Of a stretch of 43,548 nt of DNA, positions 19,351-19,425 are shown one piece after another. Origin of the DNA: a virus. Position 1 is the first letter of the stretch. Each line of letters opens with the position of its first letter. A program made the translations under genes and the position numbers. The notes below the pieces were generated by a model. That model saw only the letters and a list, made by a program, of their open reading frames with translations. It was not told the DNA's origin and made no database searches. Location: IMG/VR virus record IMGVR_UViG_3300042731_008280. One strand, written 5' to 3'.

Positions 19351-19425
19351 TGTATCAAGTAGGATTTGAACCTACGGCCTCCCGCTTGACCGTGCGGGTG
19401 CTCTGCCGAACTGAGCTACTGACAC
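19351..19425 (-). tRNA. tRNA-like gene with an aberrant 8-nt anticodon loop (ACGGTCAA). Isotype undetermined; no encoded CCA.
   Basis: Good acceptor (GTGTCAG/TTGATAC), D-arm (GCTC AGTTCGGCA GAGC) and T-arm (GTAGG TTCAAAT CCTAC). The anticodon stem CCCGC/GCGGG encloses 8 nt. Confidence 0.5.

What the first reader, a model, noticed from the sequence alone, without database searches (positions are those of the whole stretch)
19351..19425. tRNA gene with an 8-nucleotide anticodon loop
The acceptor, D-arm and T-arm are canonical. The 5-bp anticodon stem (CCCGC/GCGGG) encloses ACGGTCAA, which is 8 nt, lacks U33, and has no readable 3-nt anticodon. It may be a pseudo-tRNA, a frameshift-suppressor-like tRNA, a decoy for a tRNA-targeting nuclease, or an integration-site remnant. 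A GC-rich insert abuts it.
Basis: seen in the sequence. Interest (0 to 1): 0.5.

Follow-up and report, generated by a model that had tools for sequence, protein, structure and literature searches.

The report
Phage tRNA gene with 8-base anticodon loop
A large uncultured phage carries a perfectly folded tRNA gene whose anticodon loop has eight bases and lacks the universal U33; no related sequence shares it, so it is more likely a disabled or repurposed accessory tRNA than a proven four-base decoder.

Summary
ARAGORN calls it tRNA-?(Thr|Asp) with the 4-base anticodon GGUC. Rfam's tRNA model scores 52.7 bits. All 21 stem pairs and the tertiary-contact bases are intact. The loop ACGGUCAA has 8 nt with C at position 33.

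No single-base deletion restores a canonical loop, so an assembly indel alone cannot explain it.

The window is part of a metagenomic phage contig rich in tRNA-maintenance genes: peptidyl-tRNA hydrolase, RNase T-like exonuclease, two RNA ligases, a kinase and Thg1. It also holds three canonical tRNAs.

- The odd tRNA is the only one of the four that does not encode CCA.
- It has G3:U70 and A73, two alanine identity elements.
- No counterpart was found in any related phage locus or in three public collections.
- The phage does not avoid in-frame GAC-C.
- No gene junction in the window needs a +1 shift at GACC or GACU.

Best reading (about 45%): a lineage-specific, structurally intact but decoding-disabled tRNA relic. 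Rivals are a loop-remodelled tRNA acting in the conflict with host anticodon nucleases, and a weak natural +1 frameshifter. Interest is moderate to low without read-level or expression data.

The parts
19351..19425 (-). tRNA-like gene of 75 nt: 7-bp acceptor stem, 4-bp D stem, 5-bp anticodon stem, 5-bp T stem, 5-nt variable loop. No 3'-CCA is encoded.
   Evidence: ARAGORN; Rfam RF00005 at 52.7 bits; the minimum-free-energy fold is the cloverleaf; the downstream sequence is TTAGACC.
19386..19393 (-). 8-nt anticodon loop ACGGUCAA. ARAGORN reads A32 C33 [G G U C] A37 A38. U33 is absent.
   Evidence: Sequence; the Rfam alignment shows 8 nt where the model has 7.
19381..19398 (-). Anticodon arm: an all-G:C 5-bp stem CCCGC/GCGGG enclosing the loop.
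   Evidence: Among 120 genomic tRNAs sharing this stem and its junctions, all have 7-nt loops and 73 are tRNA-Asp(GUC).
19351..19357 (-). [quoted passage not shown] U70 is at 19354 and pairs with G3 at 19423. A second wobble pair is G7:U66.
   Evidence: Read from the sequence and the Rfam alignment. G3:U70 plus A73 are AlaRS identity elements (established knowledge).
19426..19642 (-). 217-nt untranslated 5' flank. It is AT-rich next to the tRNA and GC-rich beyond 19520. It holds one weak sigma-70-like match at 19524-19496.
   Evidence: The scan found 1 promoter-like site against a mean of 4.7 in shuffles, so this is not evidence of a promoter.
19135..19329 (-). 64-aa ORF that starts 21 nt 3' of the tRNA. 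It is an ORFan and possibly not a gene.
   Evidence: Its only match among 5.8 billion proteins is itself; no Pfam or PHROG hit.
19842..21158 (-). Three tandem MORN-repeat paralogs (158, 127 and 128 aa), 83-85% identical in protein sequence to the first copy (about 85% at the nucleotide level), upstream of the tRNA. This is context, not part of the tRNA.
   Evidence: A 5-copy array lies in another phage contig of the same sample with no tRNA beside it.
23599..23675 (-). Canonical tRNA-Glu(UUC) with encoded CCA, used as a comparator.
36474..36624 (-). Canonical tRNA-Ile(UAU) and tRNA-Phe(GAA), both with encoded CCA, used as comparators.

Best explanation
It is a real, lineage-specific tRNA-like gene in a large uncultured phage. 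Its body is a fully intact class-I tRNA. Its anticodon loop carries at least two departures from the universal design: one extra nucleotide, and C in place of U33.

The most likely history (inferred) is as follows. An accessory phage tRNA of the Asp/Thr/Asn type (GUC or GGU core) was acquired separately from the phage's three CCA-encoding tRNAs. Its loop was then altered, which took it out of ordinary triplet decoding. It is now a recent relic with little or no translational role.

If transcribed, it should still be cut by RNase P and RNase Z, and it would need the host CCA-adding enzyme. G3:U70 with A73 predicts alanylation by AlaRS rather than charging by an anticodon-reading synthetase. In that case its only translational activity would be rare, inefficient +1-prone reading at GAC-C/U.

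Shown: the sequence, the fold, the singleton status, the missing CCA, and the absence of codon-level adaptation in the phage. Inferred: the ancestry, the processing, the charging and the lack of function.
For: - The structure is real and rare.
- No counterpart lies in the fetched neighbourhoods of related phages. These are the relatives found through the 288-aa protein (47-60% aa identity; L013-L017), the relatives found through the kinase (75% aa identity; L232-L240), and another phage of the same sample (L250). An Rfam re-scan of seven of these loci (115,879 bases) found no tRNA beyond those ARAGORN had already called.
- No counterpart was found by pattern scans: three of IMG/VR aimed at this tRNA, one of the metagenome collection and one of GTDB genomes.
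- It is the only one of the four window tRNAs without encoded CCA.
- In-frame GAC-C is not depleted: 23 of 166 GAC codons (13.9%) against a background next-base C of 14.7%.
- None of the +1 ORF junctions in the window carries in-frame GACC or GACU.
- A related phage holds a clearly decayed tRNA (33.3 bits, several broken pairs, L232:16740-16811). So tRNA decay does occur in this group.
- The gene sits in about 630 nt without a credible protein gene, since the flanking 64-aa ORF is an ORFan, at a break in synteny.
Against: - A neutral relic should collect hits anywhere. Here 21 of 21 stem pairs and U8, A14, G18, G19, G53, U54, U55, C56 and A58 are all intact, and both departures lie in the 7-8 nt loop. 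The chance of two random hits both landing in the loop is about 0.01.
- Gene-dense phage genomes purge useless DNA quickly.
- The gene is co-oriented with its neighbours inside a 40-kb island of tRNA-maintenance genes.
- In a relative, the otherwise identical tRNA-Phe differs only at loop positions 32, 37 and 38. This points to selection on anticodon loops in this lineage.
- The related phages are distant, and phage tRNA content turns over fast. Absence of a counterpart is therefore weak evidence.
Confidence: 0.45

Rival explanations
1. Counter-defence tRNA. The anticodon loop was remodelled under selection from host anticodon-loop nucleases. The RNA would act in one of two ways. It could be a nuclease-insensitive substitute that still reads GAY (Asp-type) or ACY codons with an 8-nt loop, as yeast mitochondrial tRNA-Thr(UAG) reads triplets. 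Or it could be a non-decoding decoy or sponge for the nuclease or for a tRNA-modifying enzyme.
For: - The window encodes peptidyl-tRNA hydrolase, an RNase T-like exonuclease, a metallophosphoesterase, an AAA_33/KTI12-type kinase, Rnl1-type and Rnl2-type RNA ligases and a Thg1-like enzyme. This is the toolkit phages use to undo tRNA cleavage.
- Both anomalies are confined to the loop of an otherwise perfect tRNA.
- tRNA-Phe of a related phage differs from the window's copy only at loop positions 32, 37 and 38.
- Other phages with the same Phe core keep canonical loops.
- Loop mutations that evade anticodon nucleases are documented for phage tRNAs (PMC10264068). Phage tRNAs neutralise PARIS and retron effectors (PMC11464382, PMC11555353).
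- Asp is the phage's most used two-codon amino acid (706 of 11,100 codons).
Against: - The documented evading tRNAs that I checked (PMC10264068) are described as carrying anticodon-loop mutations; that paper's text mentions no insertion or 8-nt loop. That such tRNAs keep a 7-nt loop and U33 is my general understanding.
- An 8-nt loop without U33 is a poor decoder and a poor mimic.
- A73, A38 and U2:A71 lack AspRS determinants.
- There is no encoded CCA.
- It is not conserved in any relative.
- No host or nuclease is known.
Confidence: 0.25
2. Natural +1 frameshifting or quadruplet-decoding tRNA. The anticodon GGUC reads GAC-C (or GAC-U) as one codon and probably inserts alanine, because G3:U70 and A73 recruit AlaRS whatever the anticodon. 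The phage would use it either for programmed recoding of one of its own genes or to corrupt host translation.
For: - The loop has 8 nt and A37, the geometry of classical suppressors and engineered qtRNAs (PMC4238358; PMC9094753).
- G3:U70 and A73 are present.
- AlaRS-type scaffolds tolerate anticodon changes (PMC9094753).
- Ashbya mitochondria provide a precedent for sense-codon reassignment to alanine (PMC3874161).
- The phage encodes a peptidyl-tRNA hydrolase that could clear drop-off products.
Against: - There is no depletion of in-frame GAC-C or GAC-U in 11,100 phage codons.
- None of the +1 ORF junctions in the window has GACC or GACU.
- The only Thr-type ACC-C junction near the tRNA (19877) is at the level expected by chance.
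- I expect C33 in place of U33 to lower decoding efficiency (general knowledge, not tested here).
- G3:U70 also occurs with the same acceptor helix in an ordinary phage tRNA-Asn (L099). It may therefore be inherited rather than selected.
- G2:C71 and G20 of the Ala identity set are absent.
- There is no conservation.
Confidence: 0.12
3. Sequencing or assembly artefact: a canonical 7-nt loop miscalled with one extra base.
For: Both records that carry the tRNA region come from JGI sample 3300037297, the 52,110-bp contig and a 20-50 kb record, and may be one assembly. Reads could not be inspected. An independent Logan assembly of SRR12668987 is 100% identical to the window elsewhere, but its contig for this region could not be retrieved.
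Against: - Removing any one of the eight loop bases still leaves C or G at position 33, so a second change is required (read from the sequence).
- The extra base is not in a homopolymer run.
- About 70 ORFs tile the 43.5-kb window without frame breaks, so the indel error rate is very low.
Confidence: 0.03
4. Integration-site (att) remnant, or a tRNA-shaped RNA-processing signal with no tRNA function.
For: The gene lies at a break in synteny, next to GC-richer DNA and a tandem gene array. Copies of an IS200/605-type TnpB element are present on the contig.
Against: - The tRNA is full length.
- No duplicated 3' fragment exists in the window.
- No integrase lies nearby.
- A processing signal would not need conserved D-loop and T-loop tertiary bases.
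Confidence: 0.05

Closest known systems
Classical +1 frameshift-suppressor tRNAs (SufD tRNA-Gly CCCC, SufA6/SufB2 tRNA-Pro, SufJ tRNA-Thr GGU with C31.5)
   Same: An 8-nt anticodon loop on an otherwise normal tRNA body. A GGU or GUC core that could read ACC or GAC with the following base (PMC4238358).
   Different: Those are laboratory mutants that differ from a known parent by one inserted base and keep U33. Here no parent was found, at least two changes are needed, U33 is replaced by C, and no suppressible site was found in the window.
Yeast mitochondrial tRNA-Thr1(UAG) and Ashbya mitochondrial tRNA-Ala(UAG)
   Same: The yeast mitochondrial tRNA-Thr(UAG) is a natural tRNA with an enlarged 8-nt anticodon loop (PMC3113583). 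In Ashbya mitochondria CUU and CUA codons are reassigned to alanine (PMC3874161). The G3:U70 detail for the Ashbya tRNA is my recollection and was not read here.
   Different: Those tRNAs are tied to a codon reassignment in their genomes, and the yeast tRNA's origin from tRNA-His was traced by phylogenetic analysis (PMC3113583). This one is a singleton in a phage whose ORFs read normally under code 11.
Phage tRNAs that evade anticodon nucleases through anticodon-loop mutations (mycobacteriophage C1 tRNAs; the T5 tRNAs that defeat PARIS and retron PtuAB)
   Same: A phage-encoded tRNA whose differences are concentrated in the anticodon loop. It co-occurs with RNA-repair genes (PMC10264068, PMC11464382, PMC11555353).
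   Different: The study I checked (PMC10264068) describes anticodon-loop mutations and mentions no insertion or 8-nt loop. That the known evading tRNAs keep a 7-nt loop, U33 and a readable anticodon is my general understanding. This one has 8 nt, no U33 and an ambiguous anticodon.
Degenerate pseudo-tRNAs in phage tRNA arrays
   Same: Not conserved, an aberrant anticodon loop, and no CCA where its sibling tRNAs have it.
   Different: Typical pseudo-tRNAs have broken stems and low scores, such as L232:16740-16811 at 33.3 bits. This one has 21 of 21 pairs and scores 52.7 bits.

Membership tests
Canonical elongator tRNA (Rfam RF00005) | Cloverleaf with 7/4/5/5-bp stems and the conserved tertiary bases U8, A14, G18, G19, G53, U54, U55, C56, A58 | tested here: met
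   Rfam 52.7 bits against a gathering score of 29. The minimum-free-energy fold is the cloverleaf. All listed bases are present in the sequence.
Canonical elongator tRNA (Rfam RF00005) | 7-nt anticodon loop with U33 and a purine at position 37 | tested here: not met
   The loop is ACGGUCAA: 8 nt, with C (or G) at position 33 in every register.
Canonical elongator tRNA (Rfam RF00005) | A 3'-CCA end and aminoacylation | not testable with these tools
   CCA is not encoded, unlike the Glu, Phe and Ile genes of the same window. Addition of CCA and charging need experiments.
+1 frameshift-suppressor / quadruplet-decoding tRNA | An anticodon loop expanded by one nucleotude next to or near the anticodon | tested here: met
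   The loop has 8 nt and ARAGORN reads the anticodon GGUC.
+1 frameshift-suppressor / quadruplet-decoding tRNA | A cognate four-base site whose +1 reading is needed to make a protein | tested here: not met
   No in-frame GACC or GACU lies at any +1 ORF junction of the window. Only 43.5 kb of a larger genome could be tested.
+1 frameshift-suppressor / quadruplet-decoding tRNA | Avoidance of the cognate quadruplet elsewhere in the genome's own genes, as expected for an efficient shifter | tested here: not met
   GAC-C is 23 of 166 GAC codons (13.9%), against a background next-base C of 14.7%.
+1 frameshift-suppressor / quadruplet-decoding tRNA | Measured frameshifting activity | not testable with these tools
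   This needs a reporter assay.
AlaRS substrate (tRNA-Ala identity set) | G3:U70 wobble pair | tested here: met
   G at window 19423 pairs with U at 19354. The same pair occurs in a phage tRNA-Asn with the same acceptor helix (L099), so it is not specific evidence of Ala identity.
AlaRS substrate (tRNA-Ala identity set) | A73 discriminator base | tested here: met
   A at window 19351.
AlaRS substrate (tRNA-Ala identity set) | The auxiliary elements G2:C71 and G20 | tested here: not met
   The pair is U2:A71, and the D loop AGUUCGGCA places C at position 20.
Phage anticodon-nuclease-evading tRNA | The same anticodon as a targeted host tRNA, with point substitutions in a 7-nt loop | tested here: not met
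   The loop has 8 nt and the anticodon is ambiguous. The host is unknown.
Phage anticodon-nuclease-evading tRNA | Resistance to cleavage, or rescue of infection | not testable with these tools
   This needs biochemistry or genetics. Only context supports it, namely the RNA-repair genes.
Pseudo-tRNA | Broken stems or a low covariance-model score | tested here: not met
   21 of 21 pairs are intact and the score is 52.7 bits.
Pseudo-tRNA | Absence from related genomes (no purifying selection visible) | tested here: met
   No counterpart was found in L013-L017, L232-L240 or L250, nor in three collections. The relatives are distant, so this is weak.
tRNA-gene attachment-site remnant | A partial 3' tRNA copy duplicated at the other end of an inserted element, with an integrase | tested here: not met
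   The 3' 22-mer occurs only once even when 3 mismatches are allowed. No integrase was found among the neighbouring proteins scanned.

The most novel reading that the evidence does not exclude
A phage-encoded natural tRNA with a four-base anticodon (GGUC) that AlaRS charges through G3:U70 and A73. During infection it would shift ribosomes +1 at GAC-C/U, either to express a recoded phage gene located outside this window or to sabotage host translation. An equally unexcluded variant is an 8-nt-loop tRNA mimic that titrates a host anticodon nuclease. In both variants it would work together with the adjacent tRNA-repair genes.
Probability: 0.12. Interest if true: 0.8.

Novelty: new member of a known kind. 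Interest (0 to 1): 0.3.

Why it matters
Natural tRNAs with expanded anticodon loops are very rare outside mitochondria and laboratory suppressors. A functional one in a phage would give a natural precedent for quadruplet decoding or programmed +1 recoding. Alternatively it would add a new trick to the phage-host conflict over tRNAs. Either result would interest both genetic-code engineering and anti-phage defence research.

As it stands, the gene is a single unconserved instance with no target site. Its main present value is as a flagged candidate. It also points to a phage lineage whose anticodon loops, including that of tRNA-Phe, appear to evolve unusually fast beside a large set of tRNA-repair genes.

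Tried and rejected
**Searches for a counterpart, all negative**
- The exact anticodon-arm 18-mer in IMG/VR gave nothing.
- A D-arm plus T-loop pattern in IMG/VR found only ordinary Thr and Lys tRNAs.
- A loop-specific pattern in IMG/VR gave two irrelevant matches inside the long variable arms of GC-rich tRNA-Arg genes.
- An acceptor plus T-loop pattern in the metagenome collection gave 90 loci, all with 7-nt loops. Most were tRNA-Arg(UCU); one was a phage tRNA-Asn with the same acceptor helix.

**Synteny approach**
- Relatives were found through the 326-aa radical-SAM-like protein, the 288-aa protein and the kinase, and through a cluster mate of the MORN protein.
- None has a tRNA at or near the corresponding place.

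**Ancestry**
- BLAST against 50,697 phage records gives at most 84% identity, spread over Asn, Pro, Thr, Arg and Phe genes.
- Global alignment to the 835 tRNAs predicted in the fetched loci gives about 77% identity to Lys, Thr, Asn, Ala, Ile and Asp alike.
- The parent isotype therefore cannot be named. Asp(GUC) best fits the anticodon arm. Asn best fits the acceptor and T arms.

**+1 fusion of the upstream MORN gene to the 69-aa ORF at ACC-C (19877)**
- Rejected as chance. About three ACC-containing junctions are expected and three were seen. The 69-aa ORF has its own ATG.

**Other checks**
- An independent assembly check failed. The Logan contigs (100% identical) and the contigs of sample 3300061472 (98-99% identical) that could be fetched do not cover the tRNA.
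- I recalled that Pope et al. 2014 (cluster M mycobacteriophages) may describe phage tRNAs with odd anticodon loops. That paper is not held, so this remains an unverified recollection.
- Full-text searches found no paper on natural phage tRNAs with 8-nt loops.

Full report
**1. What is there**

The feature is real, but it lies on the minus strand of 19351-19425. ARAGORN reports 'tRNA-???' with the four-base anticodon ggtc. Its fasta label is tRNA-?(Thr|Asp)(ggtc). Rfam's tRNA model RF00005 matches end to end at 52.7 bits (gathering score 29, E=1.2e-8), with 8 nt where the model has a 7-nt loop. The minimum-free-energy fold of the 75-nt RNA is the cloverleaf with an 8-nt anticodon loop (-26.5 kcal/mol, z=-2.76).

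Read in tRNA numbering, the RNA is G1-G7 / U8 A9 / GCUC / AGUUCGGCA / GAGC / A26 / CCCGC / ACGGUCAA / GCGGG / AGGCC / GUAGG / UUCAAAU / CCUAC / UUGAUAC / A73.

- All 21 stem pairs form. Two are G:U wobble pairs, at 3:70 and 7:66.
- U8, A14, G15:C48, G18, G19, A21, G53, U54, U55, C56 and A58 are all present.
- The only departures from the universal design are in the anticodon loop: one extra base, and C where U33 should be.

Such calls are rare. The only four-base anticodons were re-fetches of this same contig.

**2. Not a simple indel**

Deleting any one of the eight loop bases gives CGGUCAA, AGGUCAA, ACGUCAA, ACGGCAA, ACGGUAA or ACGGUCA. None has U at position 33. A canonical loop therefore needs at least one substitution as well as the deletion.

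The extra base is not in a homopolymer run. The window is tiled by about 70 unbroken ORFs, so assembly indels are rare here. I put an artefact at about 3%. Reads could not be inspected.

**3. Where it sits**

The window is 100% identical to JGI metagenome contig 3300037297 Ga0394146_0000049, which is 52,110 bp long. It has about 36% GC and nearly all genes are on the minus strand. It has no close relative among 50,697 phage records. Its Rnl1-type ligase is closest (31% aa identity) to a 484-kb uncultured phage.

The window is an island of tRNA-maintenance genes:

| Gene | Window coordinates | Evidence |
|---|---|---|
| Peptidyl-tRNA hydrolase | 1246-1866 | PF01195, 149.6 bits |
| RNase T-like exonuclease | 7830-8393 | |
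| Metallophosphoesterase | 12067-12819 | |
| AAA_33/KTI12-type kinase | 21195-21740 | |
| Rnl1-type RNA ligase | 28794-29879 | |
| Thg1-like enzyme | 37341-38159 | PF04446, 99.1 bits |
| Rnl2-type RNA ligase | 39413-40279 | |

It also holds three canonical tRNAs: Glu-UUC, Phe-GAA and Ile-UAU. All three encode 3'-CCA. The odd tRNA does not, since A73 is followed by UUAGACC.

Around the odd tRNA lie about 630 nt without a convincing protein gene. The 64-aa ORF that starts 21 nt downstream has no homologue among 5.8 billion proteins. Upstream are a 217-nt untranslated stretch, a GC-rich (47-52%) 69-aa ORF and three tandem MORN-repeat paralogues.

**4. Is it conserved?**

I found no counterpart.

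- Related phages reached through the 288-aa protein (47-60% aa identity, L013-L017) share the block of 118-aa, 113-aa and 288-aa genes. Synteny breaks exactly upstream of the 118-aa gene. They have no tRNA within 10 kb.
- Relatives reached through the kinase (75% aa identity, L232-L240) share the kinase, ligase, Thg1 and 612-aa genes and the Ile-Phe tRNA pair. They do not have this tRNA.
- A second phage contig of the same sample has a five-copy MORN array with no tRNA beside it.
- DNA pattern scans of IMG/VR, the metagenome collection and GTDB genomes returned only tRNAs with 7-nt loops.
- The same phage exists at 100% identity in Logan contigs of SRR12668987, and at 98-99% identity in JGI sample 3300061472. 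The pieces I could fetch do not cover the tRNA.

Absence in distant relatives is weak evidence, because phage tRNA content turns over quickly. Still, there is no positive evidence of purifying selection.

**5. What it derives from**

The parent isotype cannot be named.

The rest are Ile, Thr, Ala and Pro.
- Converting CUGUCAC to ACGGUCAA needs one insertion and at least two substitutions.
- The acceptor and T arms are nearly identical to a tRNA-Asn(GUU) in a phage-like tRNA array (L099). That gene has acceptor GUGUCAG/CUGAUAC, including G3:U70, and T stem GUAGG/CCUAC.
- Overall identity to any retrieved tRNA is at most about 77-84%.

**6. Could it decode?**

Three registers are possible.

- The quadruplet GGUC, with A32 C33 on one side and A37 A38 on the other. 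This is ARAGORN's reading, and C33 is the only fault.
- GUC (Asp), with a canonical 3' side (C36 A37 A38) but A, C, G on the 5' side, so position 33 is G.
- GGU (Thr), with C at position 37.

Precedents exist. SufJ is tRNA-Thr(GGU) with an inserted C31.5; it binds ACC in the zero frame and then shifts +1 (PMC4238358). Yeast mitochondrial tRNA-Thr(UAG) has an 8-nt anticodon loop and serves the reassignment of CUN triplet codons to threonine (PMC3113583).

For charging, the AspRS determinants G73 and C38 are absent. G3:U70 and A73, the main AlaRS determinants (established knowledge), are present, while G2:C71 and G20 are not. So if the RNA is charged at all, alanine is the best guess. Because the L099 tRNA-Asn has the same G3:U70 helix, the pair may simply be inherited.

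**7. Tests of the frameshifter idea within the window**

- Across 11,100 codons of 69 ORFs, GAC is followed by C in 23 of 166 cases (13.9%). The background next-base C is 14.7%. The phage does not avoid the cognate quadruplet, including in conserved genes.
- Among the places where an ORF of at least 50 codons is followed by a +1-frame ORF of at least 50 codons, none has in-frame GACC or GACU.
- An ACC-C lies in the junction between the nearest MORN gene and the 69-aa ORF (19877). Three ACC-containing junctions is what chance predicts, and the 69-aa ORF has its own ATG.
- Only 43.5 kb of a probably much larger genome could be examined.

**8. Arguments that the loop change is not neutral**

Both anomalies fall in the loop of an otherwise flawless tRNA. 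A related phage shows what decay looks like: a 33.3-bit tRNA with several broken pairs (L232:16740-16811).

In that same relative, tRNA-Phe is identical to the window's copy at every position except loop positions 32, 37 and 38. Its loop is UUGAAGC against CUGAAAA in the window. Other phages with the same Phe core keep canonical loops.

Together with the repair-gene island, this fits the published idea that phage tRNAs change their anticodon loops to escape host anticodon nucleases (PMC10264068; also PMC11464382, PMC11555353). The evading tRNAs described in the paper I checked carry loop mutations, with no mention of insertions. An 8-nt loop without U33 should be both a poor decoder and a poor mimic.

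**9. Verdict**

- Most likely (about 45%): a recently acquired or recently altered accessory tRNA that has dropped out of ordinary decoding and persists as an intact-looking relic.
- About 25%: a loop-remodelled tRNA acting in the conflict with anticodon nucleases, as a substitute or a decoy.
- About 12%: a weak natural +1 or quadruplet decoder, probably inserting alanine.
- About 5%: an att remnant or a processing signal. No duplicated 3' fragment and no integrase were found.
- About 3%: an artefact.
- The remainder is unassigned.

It is a new member of a known kind, namely natural tRNA genes with 8-nt anticodon loops. Without conservation, a target site or expression data, interest is moderate to low. 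The decisive data are read-level confirmation, the allele in the 98-99% strain, the rest of the genome, and reporter or charging assays.

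Noticed in passing
window 36474-36549 (-) compared with L232:16203-16278: tRNA-Phe(GAA) of a related phage (kinase 75% aa identity) is identical to the window's copy at every position except loop positions 32, 37 and 38. Its loop is UUGAAGC against CUGAAAA here. Three other IMG/VR phages with the same Phe core keep canonical loops. This looks like loop-focused evolution, possibly escape from an anticodon nuclease.
   Followed up: partly
window 1246-1866, 7830-8393, 12067-12819, 21195-21740, 28794-29879, 37341-38159, 39413-40279 (all -): A dense island of tRNA-maintenance and RNA-repair genes: peptidyl-tRNA hydrolase, RNase T-like exonuclease, metallophosphoesterase, AAA_33/KTI12-type kinase, Rnl1-type ligase, Thg1-like 3'-5' polymerase and Rnl2-type ligase. 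Four tRNA genes are interspersed among them.
   Followed up: partly
window 2533-5034 (-): An 833-aa protein with the Major Vault Protein shoulder domain (PF11978, 79.2 bits) and the Vault_3 repeat (PF17795, 42.2 bits). It has no PHROG match and is an unusual thing to find in a phage.
   Followed up: no
window 19842-21158 (-); L250:9040-11435: A tandem array of three MORN-repeat paralogues, 83-85% identical in protein sequence (about 85% at the nucleotide level). The copy nearest the tRNA has an extra repeat and a different C-terminus. A five-copy array of the same family lies in another phage contig of the same sample.
   Followed up: partly
window 1-980 and 43062-43548; L247:1-3909; L250:15439-16068: Both ends of the window match, at 89-95% identity, copies of a repeated element. 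On the parent contig this element includes a 405-aa TnpB (Cas12f1-like_TNB) gene. The same element is present in a second phage contig of the sample.
   Followed up: no
L232:16740-16811: A degenerate tRNA (Rfam 33.3 bits; ARAGORN 'Phe-AAA') with several broken stem pairs but an encoded CCA, downstream of the Ile-Phe pair in the related phage. No equivalent exists in the window.
   Followed up: no
window 23599-23675 (-) and 36550-36624 (-): tRNA-Glu(UUC) has a G1:U72 wobble as its first acceptor pair. The phage also carries tRNA-Ile with a UAU anticodon for AUA, its second most used Ile codon (354 codons). From general knowledge, most bacteria read AUA with a modified CAU anticodon.
   Followed up: no
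window 9772-10869, 15639-16322, 16268-17248 (all -): Several proteins give weak radical-SAM matches below Pfam's cut-offs. The 326-aa protein carries a CxxxCxxC motif. The two-gene module 15639-17248 is shared at 55-67% aa identity with otherwise unrelated IMG/VR phages.
   Followed up: no
L099:3584-3658 (ERZ724506 NODE_51, 45.6 kb): A phage-like array of eight tRNAs. Its tRNA-Asn(GUU) has the same acceptor helix as the odd tRNA, including a G3:U70 pair. The alanine identity pair therefore occurs in a non-Ala phage tRNA.
   Followed up: partly
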